Below, piece after piece: positions 5,468 through 62,072 of a DNA stretch of 64,000 nt. The stretch is from contig JAZSCU010000024.1 in NCBI GenBank assembly GCA_045530815.1, positions 65-64,064 of the forward strand, in the 5' to 3' direction. Origin of the DNA: Candidatus Nanosyncoccus sp. (GTDB lineage: Bacteria; Patescibacteriota; Saccharimonadia; Saccharimonadales; Saccharimonadaceae). The first letter of the stretch is position 1, and each line of letters begins with the position of its first letter. A program made the translations under genes and the position numbers. The notes beneath the pieces were generated by a model, which worked only from the letters and a program-made list of their open reading frames with translations, ran no database searches and had not been told where the DNA came from.

Positions 5468-6568
5468 ATGAAAATAAAAGTTTCACAAGAAAAGTTAAGT
5501 AAAGCCCTAAATAATGTAAGTAGAATAGCAATTGGTAAAGTAACTCTACCTATATTAAATAATGTATTAATAAGAGTAGATAAGAAAAAAGTTTCCCTCA
5601 CCACTACCAACTTAGATATGGCAGTAGTTGATTTCTTACCAGTCTCTAATTCAGAAGATGGAGTAGTTACCATACCAGCAAAACTTTTAGCTGAATTTGT
5701 CTCTAACCTTCCCAAAGGTGAAACCGTCGAAATAGAATCTAAAGATACAAAAGTAACAATCACTTCCGGTAAATATTCTTCCACGATTAATGGGAGCCTA
5801 GCGGATGATTTCCCAGAACTTCCAGAAATAGATGAAAAATCTGCAGTTATATATAAAATTAATGTGGATGAATTTAAAACCAGCCTAAGCCAAGTGATTA
5901 TTGCAAGTTCTAATGATCTAACTCGTCCTGCTCTAACTGGAGTATATTTTAATACTAATAATAACACTCTTGCTATAGCTGCTACTGATGGTTATCGTCT
6001 CGCAGAGAAAAAACTAATCGAAAAAGTCGAAAGCGAAGTAAAAGCAATTGTTCCAGCAAGCTCACTTCAAGAAGTCCTTCGTTCCCTCTCGGATGATATC
6101 GAAGAAGTAGAAATATCTTTCAATGAAGATTTAGTACGTTTTAGAATGGGTGAAATAGAAGTTATTTCTAAACTTATAGATGCTAGTTTTCCAGATTATC
6201 AAAAACTTATCCCCAAAAACAACGATATAGAAGTCACAATTAATCGTGAAGAGTTAATTAGAGTTACTCGCCTCGCTGCACTCTTTTCTCGCTCGGTAGG
6301 CGGTTCTATTATTTGTGAAACTAAAGAGCCAGACACTTTTCTAGTTAAATCCATTGCTAATGAATTTGGTGAAAATGATTCAAAAATTGAAACTATTGTA
6401 AAAAAATCCGGCAAAGTAAATCTAAACTCCCGCTTTTTAATTGATGCTCTAAATGCATTCGATGAAAAAGAAATTGAATTTAGTTTTTCAAGCCATGTTA
6501 CTCCTATTCTTCTTAAAAATAAGAAAAATAGTAAATATACTCATATCGTAATGCCATTAAACTCATGA
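5468..6568 (+). CDS. dnaN: DNA polymerase III beta clamp
   Basis: PILNNVLI, TNLDMAV, ATDGYRLAE, FPDYQKLIP, HIVMPL; follows dnaA. Confidence 0.97.
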   Translation: MKIKVSQEKLSKALNNVSRIAIGKVTLPILNNVLIRVDKKKVSLTTTNLDMAVVDFLPVSNSEDGVVTIPAKLLAEFVSNLPKGETVEIESKDTKVTITSGKYSSTINGSLADDFPELPEIDEKSAVIYKINVDEFKTSLSQVIIASSNDLTRPALTGVYFNTNNNTLAIAATDGYRLAEKKLIEKVESEVKAIVPASSLQEVLRSLSDDIEEVEISFNEDLVRFRMGEIEVISKLIDASFPDYQKLIPKNNDIEVTINREELIRVTRLAALFSRSVGGSIICETKEPDTFLVKSIANEFGENDSKIETIVKKSGKVNLNSRFLIDALNAFDEKEIEFSFSSHVTPILLKNKKNSKYTHIVMPLNS

Positions 6569-7566
6569 TAATAAAATCCATCAAACTAAAAAACTTTCGT
6601 AACCACTCAGAATATTTTTTGGAATGTAAAGATGAAACTTCACTTATTTTAGGTAAAAATGGCTGCGGTAAAACTTCAGTACTTGAAGCAATTTATATTC
6701 TAACTCGGGGTAAAAGCTTCCGTGCTACCGATATAGAAATATTAAAAAGGGACCAAGAATATTATAGGATTGAACTTGAATTTACTAACGGCGAAAAAAT
6801 TCTTGCAACCTTTGATGGTAAAACTAAAAGTTTTTCTATTTTGGATAAAAAAACCCGCCGTTTACCCAAAAATCATAAATACCCAGTTATATTATTTTTA
6901 CCGTCTGATTTAAATTTAATTAGCCATTCACCAGGACGACGTCGTGAATATTTTGATCGAATATTTAGCCAGTTTAATGAATTATATGCAGTAACCTTAT
7001 CAAAATATGAAAAATCCTTAAAACAACGCAATGAATTACTAAAAAAAGAAAATGTATCTACATTGGATGTTTTTTCTTGGGATATACTACTTGCAAATTA
7101 CGGTGCAAAAATACATCTTTTAAGAAAACAATATATTGATGAAATAAATAAACACCTTACCGATATTTATCGCAGTATCGCCAAAACGAAGGATGAAATA
7201 AATATTATCTATAAAACCGAACTAGACGATATTAGTAGTGATAAATATCTAAAAAAACTCGCCGAAAATTTTCAAAAAGATTTATATTTAGGACACACTT
7301 CTTTCGGTATCCATCGTGATGATTATATTTTTGAGTTTAATCATAAACTGGCCAACGGTTCTGCCTCACGTGGCGAATCGCGCTCAATAATTTTAGCTCT
7401 AAAATTCATCGAGGCAAATCTTATTTCAGAAAAACTTAATAAAAAACCGATTATTTTATTAGACGACGTGTTTTCGGAATTAGATGAAACAAGGAGAAAA
7501 TGTTTGGTTGATAATTTTAAAAATAACCAAGTAATAATTACTAGTGTAGAATATATAGATATTTAG
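6565..7566 (+). CDS. recF: DNA replication/repair protein RecF
   Basis: LKNFRNH, GKNGCGKTSVLEAI, RRREYFDR, GIHRDD, ASRGE, ILLDDVFSELD. Confidence 0.96.
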   Translation: MIIKSIKLKNFRNHSEYFLECKDETSLILGKNGCGKTSVLEAIYILTRGKSFRATDIEILKRDQEYYRIELEFTNGEKILATFDGKTKSFSILDKKTRRLPKNHKYPVILFLPSDLNLISHSPGRRREYFDRIFSQFNELYAVTLSKYEKSLKQRNELLKKENVSTLDVFSWDILLANYGAKIHLLRKQYIDEINKHLTDIYRSIAKTKDEINIIYKTELDDISSDKYLKKLAENFQKDLYLGHTSFGIHRDDYIFEFNHKLANGSASRGESRSIILALKFIEANLISEKLNKKPIILLDDVFSELDETRRKCLVDNFKNNQVIITSVEYIDI

Positions 7567-7617
7567 AAATTATTTTCCCCTATACTGTATCTTATAAAAT
7601 TTGTTATAATAAATAAG

Positions 7618-8778
7618 ATGTTAAAAATAGAGAAAATAATTCCTGGTGGGTTTGGTCTTAGTACCGATAAAGACGGACGTAAAGCTTTTTTATGGAATGC
7701 GCTTCCTGGTGAAAACGTTTTAGATTATGAAATCACCAAAAAGAAATCACACTATTTTGAAGCGGTTGCAAAAACTATTGAAAATAATTCCAAACATCGT
7801 GTAAGTCCTAAGGATAATATTTTTCTTTCTACTTCCCCGTGGCAGATTATGACTTATGAATATGAGTTACAAACAAAACAGGAGTTAGTAGTTGAATTAT
7901 TTAGAGAACATAATATTAGTATAGAAAAACCAGAAATTTTTACCGATCACAAAGACTACTTTTATCGCAACAAAATGGAATATTCCCTCTATTGGGATAT
8001 AGAAGAAGAAAAAATTAAACCCGCCTTTCGCATGCGTGGCTCCCACCGTAAAATACCAATAAATACCTCTTCTATTGAAAGACCAGAAATATTTGCCGCC
8101 GCTCAGAAAATAATTGATGATTTAAACTCTCGTGGCGAAGAAGCCCGCAAATATCAATCACTACTCTTACGCTGTGATAAAGATGGTAAGATTTCTGGTG
8201 GTCTTTATGAAAATCACAAACCCCACCCTATCTTCCCACCACTCACTGATCAAATTTTAGGTCATTCTTACTCTTATTCTCCAAATGGATTTTTCCAGAT
8301 AAATCTTCCAGTGTATGAAATGGCACTAAAAGAAATAAGAAAACAAATAAAAACCGACAAAGTTCTTGACCTCTATGCTGGTGTTGGTACTATTGGTCTA
8401 TCTGTTGCTAGAGATAAAGACCTCATCTTGGTTGAAGTCGATAAATCTGCCTACCAAGAACTACAAAAAAATTGTAAACAAGCCTCCCTAAATTTAGCCG
8501 ACGCAATCCTTGCACGTTCTGAAGATGTTTTAAATTATATTAACCCAGATCAGACCGTGATTATTGATCCTCCTCGTGCTGGCTGTGACCGCAAGCTAAT
8601 TGATCACCTAAACAAAACAAAGCCGAAAGTGGTTATATATTTATCCTGTAACCCAGCCACTCAAGCCCGCGACGTTAAAATGCTTCTTAGCAGCTACAAG
8701 ATTACAAATATTAAAACCTTTAATTTCTTCCCTCGTACACCTCATATCGAAAACCTCGTTATTTTAGAGTTGATATGA
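7618..8778 (+). CDS. RNA m5U methyltransferase, RlmD/TrmA family (TRAM-like N-terminus)
   Basis: [50 protein letters not shown]. Confidence 0.88.
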
Positions 8779-18495: not shown

Positions 18496-20313
18496 ATGAT
18501 ACTTAGGATTCGCTCTAGCGAGCAAAGCTCTGTAAATAAGAAGCTTTTTGCTCTCCCATTAATCGTGGGCGTAGCTGGGATTGCCGCCGTTAGTAGTTCT
18601 GGCGCAGTGAGTGCTGCTAGTCTCACAGATAACCTAGAAATTAGCCCAGCTTACCAAAAATACATGGCAGACAAAAATTCAGGGCTTGGAGATAAGTGGG
18701 TCTTGATCCCAAATAAATATAATTTTAAACCAGGTGTAGCAGAGGGCCGTGGCAACGGAACAGAATTGCCAAGTTCTTATAATTTAATTGAGGCCGGTTA
18801 TAAAACACCACAAAAAAATCAGGGCGGAGATGGAGATTGTTGGGCATATGCAACTACCACAGCAATGGAATCTTACATGAAAAAGAATATGGGTGTTTCG
18901 ATTGAGTTTTCGCCAAAACAACTAGACTATATTGTTACTCCTAGCACCGAATACGGGACATTCTTGTCTCAAAAGTATGGCGCAAATAGAGAAATCGGTA
19001 CTGCCGGTAGCTTTATTTTAGCGAGCATAGGCCTAAGAAGTGATTATGTGTTAGACCGCGAAGATGTCTTTTTTGCCAGAATGAAAGCTAATGATTCAGA
19101 ATTAGCTAATTACCAATCTTTTAAACAATATAATGATGTTCATACAATTTTGGCTCCAGTTTCTAATTTTAAGGCCTATACTAAACCAATGTCTAGGGAC
19201 CAGATTCTTGGCGACAAAGCAGAATATCTGGTTGATGGTTTTGAATGGATAAATAAAAATGATCCAGACGCCGTGGCCAAAATCAAAGAAAAGGTCTACA
19301 CCAAAGGAGCGATGTATGTAGGAACATTTGCCCCAGAAACCGAAAACTGTTGGGACGAAAATTCCGACACGATCATTGATCGCGATGTAAATACCTGCGG
19401 AAGTGAAAACGGCCATGCTATGGCGATTGTTGGTTGGGATGATAATCATTCATATAAGAAACCAGATGGCACAACGGGGACCGGGGCCTTTATAGTACAA
19501 AATTCCTACGGGCAGGATAGTCTCTTTAGTGATTATGGTATTAACTCTGCCGATGATTACATAGAGTTTTTGCGAGAAGGTGGCGCCCTGGATAATATAT
19601 CACAAGGAGTAATCCAGCAAATACACGACGCAATTGCGCCAGTAATTGAAAACTGGGATGCCGACGAAACTATCTACCTAGCCTACGATTTTGAAAAAGG
19701 AAATAACGGAACTATCGAATTTGCGGCTATCACCAGTATGGTCAAAAATGATTTTGATAAAGTATATGATATGACGCAGGCAACAACAGAAGCTAAAGAC
19801 GGAACTTTCCTAAATTTCAAAATGAAAGGCCAAGGTGAGCAAGATTTAACAGCGGTCGGCCTTGATTTACTAGCTGCTCAATCGAGAAGTATTAATTTTA
19901 CCATAGGTGTGGACAGCAATAATGATGGTATCAGCGAATATGATCAGCCACTTACGTTTGGGGCAGCTGAAGCAGGTAGAAGAGTAGCTAAATTAGATAG
20001 ACCAATCCATGTGTCTGGAGATTTCACTCTTATGGTATCTGCAGAAGGATATGGATTAACAGCTGACAATGACGGCACTATATCAGCATTAGCCTATACA
20101 GGGGGTCCAGCGGCATCTCCAGATACTATTCCGGTTCCAAAAACCGGCAGCGATATTACCGTGCCAAATACCGGTCTCTCTACAAATGATGACAATGGTG
20201 TTAAATTTGGCGGTATAGTAGCAACCCTAGTAGGGATCTTAACCATCGTCGCAACAGCGATAGCATTCAAAAACCGCCATCGTTTACACAAAATCAAATT
20301 TGACAAAAATTAA
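18496..20313 (+). CDS. Secreted papain-like (C1) cysteine peptidase with C-terminal sorting-like signal
   Basis: Signal peptide; KNQGGDGDCWAY, GHAMAIVGWDD, VQNSYG (Gln/Cys/His/Asn); VPKTG and VPNTG + TM + basic tail. Confidence 0.88.
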   Translation: MILRIRSSEQSSVNKKLFALPLIVGVAGIAAVSSSGAVSAASLTDNLEISPAYQKYMADKNSGLGDKWVLIPNKYNFKPGVAEGRGNGTELPSSYNLIEAGYKTPQKNQGGDGDCWAYATTTAMESYMKKNMGVSIEFSPKQLDYIVTPSTEYGTFLSQKYGANREIGTAGSFILASIGLRSDYVLDREDVFFARMKANDSELANYQSFKQYNDVHTILAPVSNFKAYTKPMSRDQILGDKAEYLVDGFEWINKNDPDAVAKIKEKVYTKGAMYVGTFAPETENCWDENSDTIIDRDVNTCGSENGHAMAIVGWDDNHSYKKPDGTTGTGAFIVQNSYGQDSLFSDYGINSADDYIEFLREGGALDNISQGVIQQIHDAIAPVIENWDADETIYLAYDFEKGNNGTIEFAAITSMVKNDFDKVYDMTQATTEAKDGTFLNFKMKGQGEQDLTAVGLDLLAAQSRSINFTIGVDSNNDGISEYDQPLTFGAAEAGRRVAKLDRPIHVSGDFTLMVSAEGYGLTADNDGTISALAYTGGPAASPDTIPVPKTGSDITVPNTGLSTNDDNGVKFGGIVATLVGILTIVATAIAFKNRHRLHKIKFDKN

Positions 20314-20327
20314 AGTAAGATAAAACT

Positions 20328-20358
20328 CTAAAAACACCCCATAAAGGGGTGTTTTTAG
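20328..20358. terminator. Intrinsic terminator
   Basis: CTAAAAACACCCC-ATAAA-GGGGTGTTTTTAG. Confidence 0.8.
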
Positions 20359-20430
20359 TTACGCATACAATTCCCTTCTAAAATATATGGTATAATTATT
20401 AAAAATAATAGGGCAAGAGGAAATCCAAAA

Positions 20431-23148
20431 ATGAAATTCGCAAGTAGTTATGAACCGGGGGAATATGAAACTGACATTTATGCCGCTTGGGAAGCAGCTG
20501 GTGTTTTTAACCCTAACATTCCTACTGTCCCTGTTGATGTCGATAGCGACGGCCACGATGATCGAGAAGAAAAATCAAAATGCTTTTCTATTGTTATGCC
20601 GCCGCCAAACGCTAATGGTGATTTACATATCGGCCATGGTTTAACTGTAGCTCTTGAAGATTCCCTTACCCGTTATTACCGTCTAAAAGGCGCCTCCTCC
20701 TGGTATATTCCGGGCGCTGATCATGCCGGGTTTGAAACCTGGGTAGTTTACGAAAGAGAGCTCGAAAAACACGGCCATACTCGCTTCGAGTTTGATCGCA
20801 ATGAACTTTATGCTAGGGTCTGGGATTTTGTTGCAGAGCAACGTGGTAATATGGAACTCCAACTCCGCGCCTTGGGTGCTTCCTGTGCTTGGGACGATCT
20901 TACCTTTACTCTTGACGAAAACGTCATCGACCGCGTTTATACCACCTTTGAAAAAATGTGGAACGATGGCCTTATTTACAGAGGTAAAAAACTCGTGAAC
21001 TTCTGCCCCAAACACCAAACCGCCTTCGCTGATATCGAGGTTGAACATAAAGACGAAAAAGGTACTCTCTGGGAAATCGCATATGATGACATTATCGTAT
21101 CCACTACAAGACCCGAAACTCTTTTTGGCGACACTGCCGTTGCTGTCAATCCCGAAGATGAGAGGTACAAAGATCGCATCGGCAAAACAGTTCATCTTCC
21201 TCTAACCGATCGCGAAATTCCTATTATTGCTGACGAGCATGCTGATCCCGAGTACGGCACCGGCGCAGTCAAAATCACCCCTGCCCACGATTTTGACGAT
21301 TTTGAAGTGGGCGAGCGCCACAATCTAGAACAAATTCAGGTCATTCAAGAAGACGGCAAAATGATCAATGTTCCCGAAAAATATAACGGTCTTTCTACCG
21401 CCGAATGCCGCAAACAGGTTCTAAAGGATTTGAAAGAACAAGGTCTATTAAAAGGTGAGAAAAAAATCGTTCACTCTGTTGCTCATTGTTATAAATGTGA
21501 TACAGTACTAGAACCCATGCTAAAAGAGCAATGGTTTGTAGATGTCGAAAAACTTGCAAAGACAGCAATCGCGCACCTCGAAGCCAACGAAATACAATTT
21601 TATCCAGAAAATAAGCAAAAAGTCCTAATTAACTATCTAAATAACCTAAGAGATTGGAATATCTCTCGCCAAATTCCTTGGGGTATCGCTATCCCAATGT
21701 TTAAAAAAGCAAATGACGATGCGACAGACGAGCCAGATTGGATTTTTGATCGTCGCACCAACCTAAAAGAAATCGAAAAGAATGGTGTTAAGTATATACG
21801 AGACGAAGATACTTTTGACACTTGGTTTTCGAGTAGTCACTGGCCTATCGTCTGTACTGACTGGTCCGAGGATCACCACACCCCATATTATCCATTGAAT
21901 GTCATGGAAACCGGCGCCGACATTCTCTTTGCTTGGGTTGCCCGTATGATTATGATGGGGCTTTATGTTACAGATGAAGTACCGTTTAAGGAAGTATATC
22001 TTCATGGGCTCGTCCTCGATGAACACGGCAAAAAAATGAGCAAAAGCAAAGGCAACGTTATCAACCCTATGGACCTTGTTGCAAAATACGGTTCCGATGC
22101 GTTTCGTCTCGGTATCTTAAGGGGCCGCTCCGCCGGCATGAATCAAGCCTTTTCCGAAAACTCTGTTATTTCTGGTCGCAACCTCTGTAACAAACTCTGG
22201 AACATCTCCCGCCTCATCCAATCCCTCGTCGATGAAGAGGGCAGTAGTAGCGAATTTGAAAATAGTGCTACTCGAGGGCTTCCGGAGGTTACGACCGAGG
22301 ATGAGGGCGCGAGCCCCGTAACGAGGGGCGCGGGCGACCCGTCCCGAGAGAGCACTATTTCAAATTCGCCATATACAACTCTCAACATGGGCGAAGATTG
22401 GATCTGTCGCGAGATCAACAATTGTCTGTCACAGGTTGAAGACGACATCAAAACCTACCGTTTTGCCGAAGCAGTCGAAACATTGTACCAAACTATTTGG
22501 GATAAATATGCCGACTGGTTCCTAGAGAGTCAAAAAATTTTCCAGAATAAGGAGCTACTGGAGCGTACTCTAGAAACACTTTTGATTGCTCTTCACCCCT
22601 TTGCTCCTTTTGTTACTGAAACTATTTGGCAAAACCTCAGCTGGACCGAAGGCTTCATTATTACCGCTAAATGGCCCGAAAAACTAAAATATGACCCTAT
22701 TTCAGCCGAAAACTTTGAAAACATAAGAACTATCGTTTCTGAGGTTAGAGGCACCCTACAGGCCCTTCCAGGCACCAATAACGCGAAAAAATACACCTTG
22801 TTGTACGACAATGACAGCCTCGTAGAGGATAATTTACTACTTATCAAGACTCTGACAAAGGTCCCTACGATAAATCCTCTCAGTGGCGCCCCTAGAGGTC
22901 TCCGCCTCGCCTTGGCAAATCACGAGCTCTATTTAGATGTTCCTGCCGAAGTTGTAGCCGAATATAAGGAAACACTTACCGACAAAATTCTCTCTGTTGG
23001 GCGCGAGCTAGACGCCTTAAATCTCAGAATGCAAAATCCAAATTATGTCGAAAGAGCCCCTGCTCACCTCGTCAAAGAAACCAAAGATCAGATCAAGGAA
23101 AAAGAATCTCTCATCGATCGCCTAAAACAACAACTAGAATTAATTTAA
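20431..23148 (+). CDS. valS: Valine--tRNA ligase carrying a 40-aa palindrome-encoded insertion
   Basis: PPPNANGDLHIGH, TTRPETL.GDTAVAVNPEDERY, WNISRQ, DTWFSS, KMSKSKGN, C-terminal coiled arm. Confidence 0.97.
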   Translation: MKFASSYEPGEYETDIYAAWEAAGVFNPNIPTVPVDVDSDGHDDREEKSKCFSIVMPPPNANGDLHIGHGLTVALEDSLTRYYRLKGASSWYIPGADHAGFETWVVYERELEKHGHTRFEFDRNELYARVWDFVAEQRGNMELQLRALGASCAWDDLTFTLDENVIDRVYTTFEKMWNDGLIYRGKKLVNFCPKHQTAFADIEVEHKDEKGTLWEIAYDDIIVSTTRPETLFGDTAVAVNPEDERYKDRIGKTVHLPLTDREIPIIADEHADPEYGTGAVKITPAHDFDDFEVGERHNLEQIQVIQEDGKMINVPEKYNGLSTAECRKQVLKDLKEQGLLKGEKKIVHSVAHCYKCDTVLEPMLKEQWFVDVEKLAKTAIAHLEANEIQFYPENKQKVLINYLNNLRDWNISRQIPWGIAIPMFKKANDDATDEPDWIFDRRTNLKEIEKNGVKYIRDEDTFDTWFSSSHWPIVCTDWSEDHHTPYYPLNVMETGADILFAWVARMIMMGLYVTDEVPFKEVYLHGLVLDEHGKKMSKSKGNVINPMDLVAKYGSDAFRLGILRGRSAGMNQAFSENSVISGRNLCNKLWNISRLIQSLVDEEGSSSEFENSATRGLPEVTTEDEGASPVTRGAGDPSRESTISNSPYTTLNMGEDWICREINNCLSQVEDDIKTYRFAEAVETLYQTIWDKYADWFLESQKIFQNKELLERTLETLLIALHPFAPFVTETIWQNLSWTEGFIITAKWPEKLKYDPISAENFENIRTIVSEVRGTLQALPGTNNAKKYTLLYDNDSLVEDNLLLIKTLTKVPTINPLSGAPRGLRLALANHELYLDVPAEVVAEYKETLTDKILSVGRELDALNLRMQNPNYVERAPAHLVKETKDQIKEKESLIDRLKQQLELI
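22250..22369. repeat. 120-bp palindromic element inserted in frame in valS
   Basis: Arms GCGAATTTGAAAATAGTGCT / AGCACTATTTCAAATTCGC (19 bp, one bulged A); GC-rich core with GCCCC/GGGGC hairpin. Confidence 0.88.
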
Positions 23149-23161
23149 AAGAAAGGATGCT

Positions 23162-23530
23162 ATGATTGATCCAAATACACTTTTTGGTACAGAATCAGAT
23201 AATTCCGAAGCCAAAAAATGGGGAGTCGTGGAGAACACCCCTTTTGCCGGCGCAGAAGAGCCAGAGCAAACATAGACATCCGAGACAGAAAACGACCCCA
23301 ATAACTCAGAGGATGGCCCAGCTTACCCCTATGGTGCATTGATTAAAAATGAAGAAGATAAAGTTTTAGGCAAAGTCGTCAGTGCTCCCTTTGAGAATGA
23401 GCAGGACACTAAGGAAGCCTTGCAAGCCGATTCAAATAAAGTAAATGGTTACTCAGCGGCTAATCGCGTAGTTATGGCCCCTGATGATAGCAATTATTAC
23501 ATCATCGAACCAGAATATACTTCTATTTAA
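23162..23530 (+). pseudogene. Acidic hypothetical ORF split by one in-frame TAG (23273-23275)
   Basis: GAAAGGA SD + ATG 23162; the frame is continuous with track ORF 23339-23530 across a single TAG. Confidence 0.6.
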
Positions 23531-23690
23531 AAAATTCACGGCCGGTTTGCCATGGATTTTTCCGCAAAAAAAAGGACGCGACTAGTTAGCCGCGGGCCTT
23601 TTATAAGTTGGTAGGGGCTATAAGAATCCCCATTTGTCTACATTTACTACCTTAGAACATTTTTGTGGATTCTTCATTATAACCCTCCTT

Positions 23691-24410
23691 TCAACCTGCT
23701 TCATACTCCTCATCGCTAATATATGTTCCGCGCAAGTCACTGAACTCCCCTGCGTCGATTTGTCTCCAGTCCCCGGGGCCGCCTTCGTAGTAGGCTCGCA
23801 CGATATTAACTTGGATGATTATGCATCCTTGTTTCTCATCGTACTGTGGTATATCAGCAAGAATATATTGCTCTACGAGCTCAATTACCTCCTTAACACC
23901 GGCCCGGAACCAGAACCCGGAACAGTCTGAGTCATCAACCCATCCATCATCCGAATTGACGATAAAGTCGTCCTCTAGTTCGTCGTCCTGGATACCGTCA
24001 AGATACATAGCGATTTCATCCTCCAAAGTTTCCTTGTCGATCTTTGTAAAGATCCTCAGAGTCGACTCGACACCTTCCTGCATAGGAATGCGCCCCTCCG
24101 TAATACCTTTACGGAGCTCAGTCAATTCATCCCACCATTTCTGGATGATCTCGCAGATCGCCTGGACGTCACCGCTACTATAAGCTTCATTTGTTTTTAT
24201 AATAGTTACTTCTCCTTCCTTAACATCGATATTGATCCCTTTGTTTACATTTTCAAATGCGTATTTCATAGTTCCTTTTCCTCCTTCGTTTTTTACTTCA
24301 CTATTATTGTTTACGACTTCCTTATTAATATTGTTATTCATTGCATTCTCTCCTTTTCTGTTGTTCATCGTGATTTCCATGTTACCTTTTGCTTCTGTAT
24401 TAGTGTTCAT
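23691..24410 (-). CDS. Hypothetical acidic protein with repeated in-frame SD-ATG starts
   Basis: 239-aa ORF, AGGAGG SD, consensus promoter upstream, hairpin near 23570-23602 downstream. Confidence 0.7.
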   Translation of the reverse strand: MNTNTEAKGNMEITMNNRKGENAMNNNINKEVVNNNSEVKNEGGKGTMKYAFENVNKGINIDVKEGEVTIIKTNEAYSSGDVQAICEIIQKWWDELTELRKGITEGRIPMQEGVESTLRIFTKIDKETLEDEIAMYLDGIQDDELEDDFIVNSDDGWVDDSDCSGFWFRAGVKEVIELVEQYILADIPQYDEKQGCIIIQVNIVRAYYEGGPGDWRQIDAGEFSDLRGTYISDEEYEAG

Positions 24411-24569
24411 TGTGATTCCTCCTTAATCGTAATTTTCAAAAAACAAATGCTAAACTATATGTGACAAGTAGTAGTACCAACCTATTTTTTAAAGTACAAA
24501 CATTTTGTAACTTTTACAACCCCCGCTTTATTTAGTTACAAAGAGCTTATGCTTAAGCTCATTCTCACT

Positions 24570-42450: not shown

Positions 42451-42686
42451 AAGCAAAAGTCTTCCGTCCTCCTTGCTCGAAATATCATGAGCAAACTCCC
42501 TATATTCTCTCGTTTCGTCGTCCGGTCGAACCTACGGTTCTCATCCTACCAGTTTTTATTATAGAAAATACCCGAACAAATGCTCGGGTATTTTCTATGG
42601 CTAGGCTGGCAGGATGACGGCTTCGCTTCGCTACGCCTAGACCTCGCTTCGCTCGGTGCGAACCTACGGTTCTCATCCTACCAGCT
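42451..42686 (-). repeat. tRNA-Gln-linked repeat array (two structured units + hairpin)
   Basis: 18-bp copy of the tRNA 3' end TGGCTAGGCTGGCAGGAT at 42598; 26-bp direct repeat CGAACCTACGGTTCTCATCCTACCAG at 42527 and 42659. Confidence 0.88.
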
Positions 42687-42691
42687 TAAGT

Positions 42692-42739
42692 ATATGAATT
42701 AAAATAAGACTCCTTCGGAGTCTTCTTCTAATTCATATG
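42692..42739 (-). terminator. Hairpin directly after tRNA-Gln
   Basis: ATATGAATT..AAGACTCC-TTCG-GAGTCTT..AATTCATAT. Confidence 0.7.
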
Positions 42740-58628: not shown

Positions 58629-59567
58629 TTATTTTGTCTCTGAATGAAATTTATCATGTATCTCTTTGAGGTGCGCATCCGTCACGTGGGTATATATTTG
58701 TGTTGTAGAAATATCTGCGTGTCCAAGCATCGATTGCACCGACCTAAGATCCGCGCCGTTCATCAAAAGATCTGTCGCAAATGAGTGTCTTAAGGTATGT
58801 GGCGATACGTGCTTGGTAATTCCAGCCAGCCTGGCATACTTTTCTACAATTCTTTCCACACTTCTTGCTGTAATTCGGCGGTAATTTCCCGAAGTGTCCA
58901 CTGTTTGTGTATGCCTTGAATTATTTAAAAATAGCGCTGGCAGGGAATCAGTCCTTGCGTCCAAATAATCAGCTACCCTGTCTGCACAAGTTTCCGAAAT
59001 AAAAATCGGCCGGTCTTTGGATCCTTTTCCTCTCACCATAAATTCTCGTCGCTCTAGGTTGATCGAGTCTCTGTTAAGTCCCACCAATTCAGACACCCGT
59101 AGTCCACCGGAGTACAACAGTTCAATAATCGCCCGATCGCGCAGTCCAGATTCATTTGAAGTATCTATCTGGTCAAGCATATCCTCTACTTCGTCAAAAT
59201 GAAGGAATGTTACCTGTTTTCGTACTACTCTAGGTAATTCCACTAGCGACGGGTCCAAAGATTTAATATCCCGCTTCGCTAAGTATTTCAAAAACCCCCT
59301 TAGTGCAATTAAATGATAAGCTTGTGTAATCACCTTTAAATCGTCTTCGCCATTTTCCGAACCGTATCGATTTAGTTTTAATCTATATTTTCTTAACAAC
59401 TCTTTTGTGATTTCGTTAGCATTCAAAGATTCCTTTTTCATGATATCAAGAGCGATTTCATAAAATCTTTCAAGGTATAGCCGATAATTATCTATTGTCT
59501 TTTTGCTTCTGCCACTTTCCACCTCTAAGTGTTCTAGAAAATCATTGATCAAATCATTTATTTCCAT
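58629..59567 (-). CDS. XerC/XerD-type tyrosine recombinase
   Basis: TIDNYR, LRDRAIIELLYSGGLRVSEL, GKGSKDR, SPHTLRHSFATDLL.NGADLR.VQ.MLGH, TTQIYTHV. Confidence 0.93.
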   Translation of the reverse strand: MEINDLINDFLEHLEVESGRSKKTIDNYRLYLERFYEIALDIMKKESLNANEITKELLRKYRLKLNRYGSENGEDDLKVITQAYHLIALRGFLKYLAKRDIKSLDPSLVELPRVVRKQVTFLHFDEVEDMLDQIDTSNESGLRDRAIIELLYSGGLRVSELVGLNRDSINLERREFMVRGKGSKDRPIFISETCADRVADYLDARTDSLPALFLNNSRHTQTVDTSGNYRRITARSVERIVEKYARLAGITKHVSPHTLRHSFATDLLMNGADLRSVQSMLGHADISTTQIYTHVTDAHLKEIHDKFHSETK

Positions 59568-60306: not shown

Positions 60307-61005
60307 CTATGCCCTTAACTCGCTTCTGCGCAGTCGTTTTTCAATTCGCTTAATAATAAATGTGATCAAATATACTACGGCTAGGTAGAACAATGCCGCC
60401 ACAAACATTGGCACAATATAGCTCGCCATATTTTGCCCAGAGCCGATATCTTTAGCCGCCATGTTAAGATCATATAAACCTACCATGCTGACGATTGCTG
60501 TCTCTTTAATTACAGTGATAATCTCATTCCCAAGCGCCGGAATAATATTTTTTATAGCTTGGGGTGCAATTATTTTTCTAAAAATCGTGAATTGCGACAA
60601 TCCTAATGCCATCCCAGCCTCTTTTTGCCCAGGATCCACCGACTGTATCCCGCTCCTAATTACTTCTGCCGTGTAAGCTGCTGAATTAAAACCGAAAGCC
60701 AAAATTGCGATAATTATTTGCGGGAATCCCCTGATTGCAAAAATCACAAAGAACATAATAAAAAGTTGTAATGCCATCGGTGTCCCACGGATGATCGTCG
60801 TATAAACTCTAGTTATCGCTTTTGGGATGATTGTCCATTTTGTTCTTTTTGCGGTATCGATTAACGCAATTATCGTCCCTAGTATTAGCCCAATAATAAT
60901 TGCAAAAAACGATATTTGCATTGTTAATAAAAATCCGTGCAACAGTGACTCTATATATTGTGGTGTTGTAAATAGCTCAACTGTTTTATCGAAAAAATTA
61001 TTCAT
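60307..61005 (-). CDS. Polar amino-acid ABC transporter permease
   Basis: IRGTPMALQ, AYTAEVIRSGI.SVDPGQ.EA..ALGL, KETAIV. Confidence 0.92.
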   Translation of the reverse strand: MNNFFDKTVELFTTPQYIESLLHGFLLTMQISFFAIIIGLILGTIIALIDTAKRTKWTIIPKAITRVYTTIIRGTPMALQLFIMFFVIFAIRGFPQIIIAILAFGFNSAAYTAEVIRSGIQSVDPGQKEAGMALGLSQFTIFRKIIAPQAIKNIIPALGNEIITVIKETAIVSMVGLYDLNMAAKDIGSGQNMASYIVPMFVAALFYLAVVYLITFIIKRIEKRLRRSELRA

Positions 61006-61870
61006 TTGTTAGTCCCATATATTTTAATATTAACTTATTCATTTCAGTTTCGCCAGCCTCATTTGGTTTTAACATCTCTTCTAACACTTCATTAAATGCA
61101 TTTAAAAGTTCCGTACGCTCTTTATTTACCGCTATAGCATATGACTCCTCTACTGGATAATCCTCGTTTGCCTCGTCCCCCTGGTAGTATAACGGCAAAG
61201 CCTTAAGTTCGGGATTTTTTTCTATAATAAATTTAGCTGCCAATTCATCTGCAATTGCATAGTCAATAATATGTGCACCAATCGCATCTGCTGCCAGCTG
61301 ATAAGAGTCTAGCCCTTTTATACTTGTATTAGTATCTTTTAATACACCATCTTTTATTTCGTTTGAGGTGAAAATATACCCAGTACTACCCGTTTGCGTA
61401 CCTAAAATTTTTCCGTTTAGCGCTTCCCACACTATGTGACCGTCGCGTTCCTCCGGCGCATTGTCATCCTTAAAAATTACATACTGCACGGACGTATAAT
61501 AGGGAATACTAAAATCAACTTTCTCCGCCCTTGCCGGTGTAATGGTTAAACCCGCTGCCCCCGCATCCGCAATTACTCCATTAGCGACATTGTCGATGAT
61601 CATATCAAATTCTACATTTTTTATATCAATTTTTGCATTTAATTTTTCTGCTACCTTATTAATAATCTCTACGTCTACCCCCACAATTTTCCGGTTATCA
61701 TAGTATTCAAATGGTGCGAAAAAAGCATTTGTCTCCACTATATAGTCATAAGTTTCAATACTTCTCGCAAAGAAAAAAGTGCTCACCGCCACAACTAGAA
61801 TCATCAGCCCCACTATCACTCTCTCGGCTGTAAACAGTCTCGCCAGCTTGTTCTGTGACCTTTTAACCAT
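60998..61870 (-). CDS. Polar amino-acid ABC substrate-binding protein
   Basis: FFAPFEY, GVDVEI, AGLTITPARAEKVDFSIPYY, GTQTGSTG. Confidence 0.92.
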   Translation of the reverse strand: MVKRSQNKLARLFTAERVIVGLMILVVAVSTFFFARSIETYDYIVETNAFFAPFEYYDNRKIVGVDVEIINKVAEKLNAKIDIKNVEFDMIIDNVANGVIADAGAAGLTITPARAEKVDFSIPYYTSVQYVIFKDDNAPEERDGHIVWEALNGKILGTQTGSTGYIFTSNEIKDGVLKDTNTSIKGLDSYQLAADAIGAHIIDYAIADELAAKFIIEKNPELKALPLYYQGDEANEDYPVEESYAIAVNKERTELLNAFNEVLEEMLKPNEAGETEMNKLILKYMGLTNE

Positions 61871-61919
61871 AAGTTAATTATAGCACAAATAAGACCCTAA
61901 AGGGTCTTCTTCGTTTCAG

Positions 61920-61954
61920 TGGTGACCTTTGGTAGCGAGTCGCACCGAAGGTCC
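61920..61954 (-). repeat. Degenerate copy of the tRNA-Arg(CCT) 3' half forming a CCA-ended hairpin
   Basis: Minus strand GACCTTCGGTGCGACTCGCTACCAAAGGTC-ACCA versus tRNA GTGCGTTCGACTCGCACCGGGGTCACCA. Confidence 0.7.
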
Positions 61955-61996
61955 GACTCTGGGCTAAAAAAAGCCTACTGGAGGCATTGAATAGTA

Positions 61997-62072
61997 TGGT
62001 GACCCCGGTGCGAGTCGAACGCACAACCTTCTCCTTAGGACGGAGCCGCTCTATCCATTGAGCTACGGAGCC
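61997..62072 (-). tRNA. tRNA-Arg(CCT)
   Basis: GGCTCCG/CGGGGTC acceptor, GCTCC-GTCCTAA-GGAGA, GTGCG-TTCGACT-CGCAC, ACCA. Confidence 0.9.

What the first reader, a model, noticed from the sequence alone, without database searches (positions are those of the whole stretch)
61891..61996. tRNA-Arg(CCT) tail: CCA-ended minihelix plus the hairpin motif shared with the Tyr and Gln loci
Seen: after a first terminator (GCCT/AGGC + T7), a refolded copy of the tRNA 3' half (GACCTT..AAGGTC-ACCA) is followed by AAGACCC-TTTA-GGGTCTTATTT. This matches AGACCC-GCA-GGGTCTTATTT (Tyr) and AAGACTCC-GAAG-GAGTCTTATTT (Gln). With the Ser array, four of eight tRNA genes here carry 3'-linked modules. Inference: a common mechanism acting at tRNA 3' ends.
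Basis: partly seen in the sequence, partly recalled or inferred. Interest (0 to 1): 0.55.

Follow-up and report, generated by a model that had tools for sequence, protein, structure and literature searches.

The report
tRNA-linked repeat behind tRNA-Arg
The odd tail behind this arginine tRNA gene is one worn copy of a small hairpin repeat that ends in a copy of the tRNA's own last bases, the same design as the "tRNA-linked repeats" known in E. coli since 1978, whose function is still unknown.

Summary
Behind tRNA-Arg(CCT) (61997-62072, minus strand) lie a weak hairpin with a T7 run, a 23-nt palindromic hairpin, a worn copy of the tRNA's last 26 bases ending in CCA (61920), and a strong terminator 11 nt further on.

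It is a tRNA-linked repeat (TLR). Nine of the 42 tRNA genes of this 0.74-Mb Candidatus Nanosyncoccus (Saccharibacteria) genome carry exact or near-exact downstream copies of their 3' ends. The 15-nt core of this unit occurs in 43 of 151 genomes of the genus, behind at least 14 different tRNAs, each time joined in the T-loop to the local tRNA's own end. It is at background level in 200 other genomes of the order.

The left arm of the hairpin and its apex stem covary with their partners.

The shared GACCC hairpin is the genus's usual tRNA terminator: 27 of 32 sampled copies follow a tRNA, or a TLR copy behind one. So it is not a generic terminator.

The Rfam RtT model does not match this unit; it matches only the Gln unit, below threshold. 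How these units arise and what they do remain inferred.

This scan has already met TLR-like units in at least 64 other genomes.

The parts
61997..62072 (-). tRNA-Arg(CCT) gene with encoded CCA
   Evidence: ARAGORN; Rfam tRNA model, 55.1 bits
61966..61985 (-). T1: weak 4-bp hairpin (61985-61973) with a CCAG-containing loop, then a T7 run (61972-61966). This is the first part of the repeat unit.
   Evidence: Folds at -4.8 kcal/mol and is not called by the terminator scan. The same hairpin type starts units behind Gln, Lys, Gly and Arg tRNAs in relatives.
61937..61959 (-). Palindromic hairpin. Left arm 61959-61954; apex 61953-61943 (x, 3 bp, TTC loop, 3 bp, x); right arm 61942-61937, which is T-loop positions 56-60 plus the first T-stem base of the tRNA copy.
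   Evidence: Present in every fold that spans it. Covariation across 33 units: 92% of cells paired, 30 double-change cells against 8.7 in shuffles, 0 of 500 shuffles as high. The apex stem covaries in 17 Arg-CCT units.
61920..61946 (-). Worn copy of the last 26 nt of tRNA-Arg(CCT), from position 52/53 to CCA. T55 is replaced by G, as in the whole family. T is inserted at 61934, and AAAG (61930-61927) stands in place of GGG.
   Evidence: Alignment with the tRNA end gives 21 matches. Units at the same locus in relatives carry exact copies.
61920..61996 (-). The whole 77-nt tRNA-linked repeat unit
   Evidence: Unit lengths at this locus in 25 species are 59-95 nt.
61887..61908 (-). T2: 7-bp GACCC hairpin plus ATTT, 11 nt after the CCA of the copy. 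This is the real end of the tRNA transcription unit.
   Evidence: Called as a terminator on both strands. Folds at -13.3 kcal/mol, z -3.4. The same hairpin lies 5-19 nt (mostly 10-15) after the CCA of many tRNAs in the genus.
61868..61885 (-). Extended -10 box (61885-61877) and ATG (61870-61868) of the next gene, a family-3 solute-binding protein (60998-61870)
   Evidence: In relatives without a repeat unit, the same promoter follows the tRNA's CCA and a T run directly.

Best explanation
The tail is a single, partly decayed unit of a tRNA-linked repeat (TLR) family specific to the genus Candidatus Nanosyncoccus. It sits between a weak first terminator (T1) and the tRNA's real terminator (T2).

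Shown:
- The unit has a conserved core.
- That core is joined, inside the universally conserved T-loop, to a copy of the 3' end of whichever tRNA lies upstream.
- The stretch just before the core is the reverse complement of the first bases of that copy, so core and copy form a palindromic hairpin.
- The acceptor 3' strand and CCA are left unpaired.

Inferred, origin:
- The unit arose at the DNA level by a duplicative insertion at the T-loop of the tRNA gene.
- That event supplied a fresh 3' end, T1 and the core.
- It pushed the old 3' end, with its own GACCC terminator, about 77 nt downstream.
- The old copy is now decaying there.
- The hairpin is kept paired either by palindrome correction (template switching) or by selection.

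Inferred, transcription:
- When T1 is read through, the unit is transcribed with the tRNA and trimmed at its tRNA-like 3' end, as reported for E. coli TLRs.
- No function beyond that is needed to explain it.
For: Anatomy and coordinates.

Genome-wide:
- Nine of the 42 tRNA genes carry such copies. Identity starts in the T-loop in most of them, and units are 62-87 nt in most.

The same core behind other tRNAs:
- G012 Gln(CTG), G001 Gln(TTG) and G004 Glu(CTC) carry it.
- It occurs in 43 of 151 genus genomes, about 115 hits against 3 control hits, often in tandem arrays with a 62-85-nt period.
- In 30 sampled loci, 28 lie 19-160 nt behind a same-strand tRNA, covering at least 14 tRNA species.
- It is at background level in 200 other genomes of the order.

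Covariation:
- The left arm covaries with the local T-loop base 59: UA 15, CG 10, GC 5, UG 2, none unpaired.
- The apex stem covaries: CG 10, UA 7.

Turnover:
- Of 75 species with this tRNA at the same locus, 25 have 1-2 units of differing apex types and 50 have none.

Displacement:
- T2 lies 11 nt after the copy's CCA. That matches the 5-19-nt spacing (mostly 10-15) seen after genuine tRNA ends in the genus, including tRNA-Arg(CCT) of G090 at 12 nt.
- Relatives without a unit have CCA, a T run and the same promoter directly.

Literature (PMC8144298):
- E. coli TLRs number 22 at 10 loci, with 1-5 per locus.
- Their last 18-19 bp are identical to the 3' end of the upstream tRNA or rRNA gene.
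- No function is known for most of them.
Against: - No transcript data exist, and no insertion intermediate was seen.
- How a new left arm is made for each new tRNA is unexplained.
- In 10 of 14 arrays every copy is still identical to the tRNA over 18 nt, even where the cores differ. That fits selection or gene conversion better than plain decay.
- Array polarity (proximal copy closer to the tRNA in 3, distal in 1) does not establish insertion at the tRNA-proximal end.
- No mobilising enzyme tracks copy number.
- The Rfam RtT model does not recognise this unit.
Confidence: 0.6

Rival explanations
1. The unit is a selected small RNA or cis-acting RNA element. It is a hairpin with a free tRNA-like 3' tail, made by read-through of T1. 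It could serve in tRNA 3'-end processing, or as a decoy or competitor for factors that bind tRNA 3' ends.
For: The hairpin covaries in both arm and apex. The 3' copies stay identical to the tRNA in most arrays despite diverged cores. T1 is weak. E. coli rrA/rrB/rrF TLRs are processed RNAs that bind Hfq and CsrA (PMC8144298).
Against: The family is patchy: 43 of 151 genomes, and 25 of 75 species at this locus. It is restricted to the genus. About half of the sampled copies, this one included, have decayed 3' ends. G.T pairs show no clear excess over A.C pairs in the hairpin (13 against 9), as would be expected if pairing mattered only in the transcribed strand.
Confidence: 0.2
2. It is the scar of an integrase-mediated event. 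A mobile element integrated into the T-loop region of the tRNA gene, and its body was later deleted, leaving attL and attR 77 nt apart.
For: There is a direct repeat of the tRNA 3' end that starts in the T-loop. The genome does hold a classical case: on contig C11 an integrase and an excisionase-like gene sit next to tRNA-Lys, with a 51-nt copy of the tRNA's 3' half beginning in the anticodon loop. In G140, two units flank 2.1 kb of cargo.
Against: The whole 59-95-nt unit, including the junction between its two halves, is shared between different tRNAs and species. Independent deletions cannot produce that. No integrase lies in or beside the units. Tyrosine-recombinase content is the same in five high-copy and five zero-copy genomes. 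The G140 cargo has no recombinase, and its repeats include the core, not only the tRNA block.
Confidence: 0.12
3. One reading: a CCA-ended acceptor/T-arm minihelix that mimics a tRNA.
For: GACCTT (61953-61948) and AAGGTC (61929-61924) can pair, and ACCA follows. This is the best fold of the isolated 47 nt.
Against: GACCTT is part of the constant core. The acceptor strands it would need to pair with differ between tRNAs. AAGGTC exists only in this mutated copy; exact copies in relatives lack it. Longer folds prefer the family hairpin.
Confidence: 0.05
4. Chance resemblance plus two ordinary terminators.
For: The copy is imperfect and T2 is a normal-looking intrinsic terminator.
Against: The 15-nt core recurs about 115 times in the genus against 3 control hits, almost always behind a tRNA. 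The GACCC hairpin is tRNA-linked in 27 of 32 sampled cases.
Confidence: 0.02

Closest known systems
tRNA-linked repeats (TLRs) of Escherichia coli (Egan & Landy 1978; Rudd 1999; as summarised in PMC8144298), including the tyrT/tyrV 178-bp repeats (rttR) and rrA/rrB/rrF
   Same: Both lie directly behind a tRNA gene on the same strand. Both end in a copy of about 18-26 nt of that gene's own 3' end. Both belong to a family spread over many tRNA loci, with one to several units per locus. The layout with the unit between a first and a second terminator matches rrnA/B/D. An outer helix forms between a 5' arm and the copied tRNA end.
   Different: This unit is much shorter: 59-95 nt against about 100-180. 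The core is a near-perfect palindrome centred just 5' of T-loop position 56, not a long GC-rich rod. Neither this unit nor its core is detectably similar in sequence to E. coli units or to the Rfam RtT model. It is found only behind tRNAs here; the 5S rRNA gene has none. It is restricted to one Saccharibacteria genus.
RtT RNA family, Rfam RF00391
   Same: A sister unit in the same window, behind tRNA-Gln(TTG) at 42598-42697, matches the model over its full length and shares several conserved words with it.
   Different: That match scores 37.4 bits, below the gathering score of 45. The Arg(CCT) unit gives no match even at E up to 10. Only 4 of 101 genus genomes give any match at E up to 0.001.
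attL/attR repeats left by tyrosine-integrase elements in tRNA genes
   Same: There is a direct repeat of the tRNA 3' end whose inner boundary lies in a tRNA loop.
   Different: No element body and no recombinase is present. The whole short unit is the conserved entity. The inverted copy of the T-loop segment is not a feature of such scars.
Small palindromic repeat families such as REP/BIME or Rickettsia palindromic elements
   Same: These are short hairpin-forming repeats with many copies and fast turnover.
   Different: Those families have fixed sequences and do not re-tailor an arm to their neighbour. They are also not tied to tRNA 3' ends.

Membership tests
tRNA-linked repeats (TLR), as defined in PMC8144298 | Lies immediately downstream of a tRNA or rRNA gene, on the same strand | tested here: met
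   The unit spans 61996-61920 directly behind tRNA-Arg(CCT).
tRNA-linked repeats (TLR), as defined in PMC8144298 | The last 18-19 bp or so of the unit are identical to the 3' end of the upstream gene | tested here: inconclusive
   This copy is worn: 21 of 26 positions match, with two single-base insertions. Units with the same core at the same locus in relatives carry exact copies of 19-22 nt or more.
tRNA-linked repeats (TLR), as defined in PMC8144298 | Member of a family of similar units at several tRNA loci, one to several per locus | tested here: met
   The core occurs in 43 of 151 genus genomes, behind at least 14 tRNA species, in arrays of up to 4 units.
tRNA-linked repeats (TLR), as defined in PMC8144298 | Transcribed with the upstream gene and processed | not testable with these tools
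   No RNA data are available. T1 is weak, which would allow read-through.
RtT RNA (Rfam RF00391) | Covariance-model score at or above the gathering score of 45 bits | tested here: not met
   There is no match to the Arg(CCT) tail at E up to 10. The only match in the genome is the Gln(TTG) unit at 37.4 bits.
Integrase att-site scar | Direct repeat of the tRNA 3' part starting in the T-loop or anticodon loop | tested here: met
Integrase att-site scar | Element DNA with a site-specific recombinase between or beside the repeats, in this or in related genomes | tested here: not met
   Only 77 nt lie between the repeats. The 30 sampled units lie 19-160 nt from their tRNA. The G140 cargo has no recombinase. 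Recombinase content does not track copy number.
tRNA-like minihelix | Continuous acceptor/T-arm helix followed by a discriminator base and CCA, conserved among relatives | tested here: not met
   The helix is possible only in this mutated copy and is absent from the family alignment.
Intrinsic terminator (T2 only) | GC-rich hairpin followed by a T-rich run at the end of a transcription unit | tested here: met

The most novel reading that the evidence does not exclude
The palindromic unit is the working site of a still unidentified recombination or template-switching process. That process inserts DNA at the T-loop of tRNA genes while regenerating the tRNA 3' end. tRNA genes of these tiny genomes would then act as small cassette-capture sites, as in the 2.1-kb cargo flanked by two units in G140, and arrays would be records of successive insertions.
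Probability: 0.12. Interest if true: 0.8.

Novelty: new variant of a known kind. Interest (0 to 1): 0.5.

Why it matters
TLRs have been an unexplained feature of E. coli tRNA and rRNA operons since 1978. According to the one paper I read on them (PMC8144298), they are described for E. coli, and the rRNA-linked ones are conserved in Enterobacteriales.

A compact version of 59-95 nt in a 0.74-Mb Saccharibacteria genome offers a much simpler system for asking how these repeats arise. It has a clear rule: a constant core, an inverted copy and a direct copy of the local tRNA end, with the junction in the T-loop. It also has hundreds of natural gain, loss and re-tailoring events across one genus.

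For annotation, it explains why tRNA genes here are followed by "second CCA ends" and double terminators. These should not be read as pseudo-tRNAs, CRISPR-like arrays or integration scars.

Tried and rejected
- **Rfam at E up to 10 on 14 tRNA tails.** No RtT match to this unit. Only the Gln(TTG) unit matches, at 37.4 bits. Across the genus, 4 of 101 genomes match, none above threshold.
- **Search for a mobilising enzyme.** No Y1 transposase was found. One reverse transcriptase lies on C33, unlinked to tRNAs. There are two tyrosine recombinases, one Xer-like. Recombinase counts are alike in five high-copy and five zero-copy genomes.
- **BLAST of each unit's non-tRNA part against the genome.** No dispersed copies away from tRNAs.
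- **Strand asymmetry of G.T against A.C pairs, to separate RNA-level from DNA-level pairing.** The counts were 13 against 9, which is uninformative.
- **Array polarity, testing whether distal copies are older.** Three proximal, one distal and ten ties; uninformative.
- **A TLR behind 5S rRNA, as in E. coli.** None here.
- **A conserved CCAG word in the first half of the unit.** Present in 6 of 25 loci with a unit against 3 of 50 without, so enriched but not universal.
- **Copying of mature tRNA by a reverse transcriptase that stops at a modified T-loop base.** Considered because of the 18-22-nt block. Dropped because identity blocks range from 18 to 30 nt and because E. coli TLRs also follow 5S rRNA (PMC8144298).
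- **Simple tandem duplication.** Rejected for this locus because the flank after the tRNA and the flank after the copy are unrelated. It does fit the Ser(CGA) and His arrays.

Full report
**What is there.** All coordinates are on the minus strand. tRNA-Arg(CCT) occupies 62072-61997 and ends in an encoded CCA. After it come, in order:

- an 11-nt spacer;
- T1, a 4-bp hairpin with a CCAG-containing loop (61985-61973), followed by seven T (61972-61966);
- a 6-nt linker;
- a 23-nt palindromic hairpin (61959-61937): a 6-nt left arm, an 11-nt apex made of an unpaired base, 3 bp, a TTC loop, 3 bp and an unpaired base, then a 6-nt right arm;
- the remainder of a copy of the tRNA's last 26 nt, ending in CCA at 61922-61920;
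- an 11-nt spacer;
- T2, a 7-bp hairpin at 61908-61891, followed by ATTT;
- an extended -10 box (61885-61877) and the ATG (61870) of a family-3 solute-binding protein gene.

The copy matches the tRNA end at 21 positions. It carries an inserted T (61934) and AAAG in place of GGG. Every fold that spans the palindromic hairpin contains it. T2 is called as a terminator on both strands; T1 is too weak to be called.

**The same theme across this genome.** The genome has 742,777 bp in 34 contigs, 40% G+C and 42 tRNA genes, all with encoded CCA.

- Same-strand copies of the last 16 nt (up to 2 mismatches) lie 62-213 nt behind nine tRNA genes: Ser(CGA) twice, Gln(TTG), Asn, Lys(TTT), Met, Val(TAC), Gly(TCC), His twice and Ser(GCT). 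The Arg(CCT) copy is a tenth, more decayed case.
- In most cases identity starts inside or at the edge of the T-loop. The exception is Lys(TTT), where it starts in the anticodon loop.
- In each case examined, the sequence just upstream is complementary to the start of the copy.

**The same unit behind other tRNAs in relatives.** Relatives are Candidatus Nanosyncoccus and other Saccharibacteria MAGs from ruminant guts.

- Short matches to the tail led to loci where the same T1 type, linker and core precede the 3' end of tRNA-Gln(CTG) in G012, tRNA-Gln(TTG) in G001 and tRNA-Glu(CTC) in G004.
- The 15-nt core GGACCTTCGGTGCGA (up to 1 mismatch) occurs in 43 of 151 genomes of the genus. That is about 115 hits against 3 for the reversed control, often in tandem arrays with a 62-85-nt period.
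- In 30 sampled loci, 28 lie 19-160 nt behind a same-strand tRNA and run into that tRNA's own end. The tRNAs are Glu, Gln (two kinds), Gly (two), Ser (two), Arg, Lys, Asn, Leu (two), Tyr and Asp.
- In 200 genomes from 152 other genera of the order, the core is at background level: 7 one-mismatch hits against about 22 control hits.

**The hairpin covaries.**

- In 33 units the hairpin is 92% paired. It has 30 cells changed on both sides, against 8.7 in shuffles (0 of 500 as high).
- The pair that involves T-loop base 59 reads UA 15, CG 10, GC 5, UG 2, with none unpaired.
- The last 7 nt of the core, GGTGCGA, read as the T-arm sequence GGTTCGA with T55 replaced by G. So the copy really starts at position 52/53.

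**The Arg(CCT) locus across 75 species.**

- Twenty-five species carry one or two units of 59-95 nt, and 50 carry none.
- The units show at least a dozen apex variants. The 3-bp apex stem covaries (CG 10 against UA 7 at the middle pair, none unpaired; 12 double-change cells against 3.9 in shuffles, 0 of 500).
- The form with the TTCTTCGAA apex, which also follows Asn, Val and Ser in this genome, is the same design with another apex.
- The closest relative found (81% identity in the neighbouring protein) has the same T1 / unit / T2 layout, with different T1, apex and T2 sequences.

**The shared hairpin, T2.**

- Within this genome, GTC+TTATTT tails occur at 3 of 22 tRNA-linked hairpins and at 0 of 256 others. 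Five of the ten GACCC-type hairpins follow tRNAs.
- In the genus, the pattern AGACCC-N3-4-GGGTCTT occurs in 56 of 151 genomes.
- In 30 sampled loci, 27 of 32 hairpins lie behind a same-strand tRNA. Of those, 22 lie 5-19 nt (mostly 10-15) after the tRNA's own CCA, and five lie further out, where they follow the CCA of a repeat copy.
- The GC top of the stem is constant, the loop varies, and an AU-rich lower stem covaries.
- It is therefore the genus's usual tRNA terminator, not part of the repeat.
- Here it sits 11 nt after the CCA of the copy. In G090 it sits 12 nt after the CCA of tRNA-Arg(CCT) itself. Relatives without a unit have CCA, a T run and the same promoter.
- I read this as follows: copy plus T2 are the former end of the tRNA gene, displaced by insertion of a new end, T1 and the core. 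This step is an inference.

**Comparison with what is known.** PMC8144298 describes the E. coli tRNA-linked repeats:

- 22 units at ten loci, with one to five per locus;
[quoted passage not shown] A 2024 preprint (10.1101/2024.07.17.603846) still calls the mode of action of rttR unknown. The layout here matches the published definition.

The tyrV repeat of E. coli K-12 and the Rfam RtT model share a full-length sub-threshold match (37.4 bits against 45, E about 2e-6) with the Gln(TTG) unit of this window. They share nothing detectable with the Arg(CCT) unit. Only 4 of 101 genus genomes give any RtT match. I therefore file the Arg(CCT) tail as a TLR by design, and not as a member of the RtT family.

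**Mechanism: what is shown and what is inferred.**

Shown:
- the modular build of the unit;
- the junction in the T-loop;
- the tailored inverted arm;
- the fast turnover;
- the restriction to one genus;
- the tRNA-specific terminator.

Inferred:
- origin by duplicative insertion;
- read-through transcription.

The left-arm covariation could come from correction of imperfect palindromes by template switching. That process is known from my own knowledge of E. coli genetics; I did not read a source for it here. It could also come from selection on a hairpin. G.T against A.C counts do not decide between these.

Evidence bearing on the rival readings:
- Most array copies are still exact, which leaves room for selection or gene conversion.
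- A plain integrase scar is unlikely because the whole short unit is the conserved entity and no recombinase tracks it.
- One locus, G140 tRNA-Val(CAC), has two units flanking 2.1 kb that encode a 2-hydroxyacid dehydrogenase and a small ORF. This shows that units can bracket cargo.

**Earlier notes of this scan.** The scan's notebook shows TLR-like units reported in at least 64 other genomes, including the Ser(CGA) array of this window. I reached the TLR reading from the sequence comparison and the literature. I tested the RtT claim myself, with the mixed result given above.

**Verdict.** The feature is real. It is a new compact variant of a known but unexplained class, and this particular copy is decaying.

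Noticed in passing
G000 contig C11, about 17205-24557 (minus strand); loci L028, L032: A host tRNA-Lys(TTT) appears to be split at the anticodon loop by a 7.3-kb element. Its 5' half lies just 3' of tRNA-Ile, and its 3' half lies at 17205-17255. Between them are an HTH_17 (excisionase-like) gene, a 378-aa integrase and a complete replacement tRNA-Lys (17418-17494). The stems of the two halves match each other, not the complete gene. A short word is repeated twice in the 162-nt spacer.
   Followed up: partly
G000 contig C33, 147-2147 (locus L031): A 321-aa reverse transcriptase (RVT_1 domain only) lies next to a 129-aa ORF with a CdiA C-terminal toxin-like domain. Its type (retron, diversity-generating or defence-associated) was not determined.
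   Followed up: no
Loci L120-L199: tRNA-Arg(CCT) keeps its place next to the SurA-like gene but is inverted relative to it in 18 of 75 species, with or without repeat units.
   Followed up: no
L106 (G140:C2) 6289-8650: Two repeat units with the same core behind tRNA-Val(CAC) flank 2.1 kb. The segment carries a 2-hydroxyacid dehydrogenase gene and a 92-aa ORF, and no recombinase.
   Followed up: partly
G000 contig C16, 11379-11544 (locus L026): Two 83-nt tandem units behind tRNA-His differ at one position. Each ends in a 26-nt copy of the tRNA end. They share the opening word TTGTTCCAGA with the unit behind tRNA-Met on C14.
   Followed up: partly
window 42598-42697 (minus strand): The unit behind tRNA-Gln(TTG) is the only match to Rfam RtT in the genome (37.4 bits). 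Its 5' arm reads as acceptor positions 4-7 joined directly to the T-stem 5' strand, the same arrangement as in the E. coli tyrV repeat.
   Followed up: partly
window 58674-59207 (minus strand): A Xer-like tyrosine recombinase (313-aa frame) lies about 2.7 kb from the Arg(CCT) unit. A similar gene is present in all ten relatives checked, so no link is implied.
   Followed up: partly
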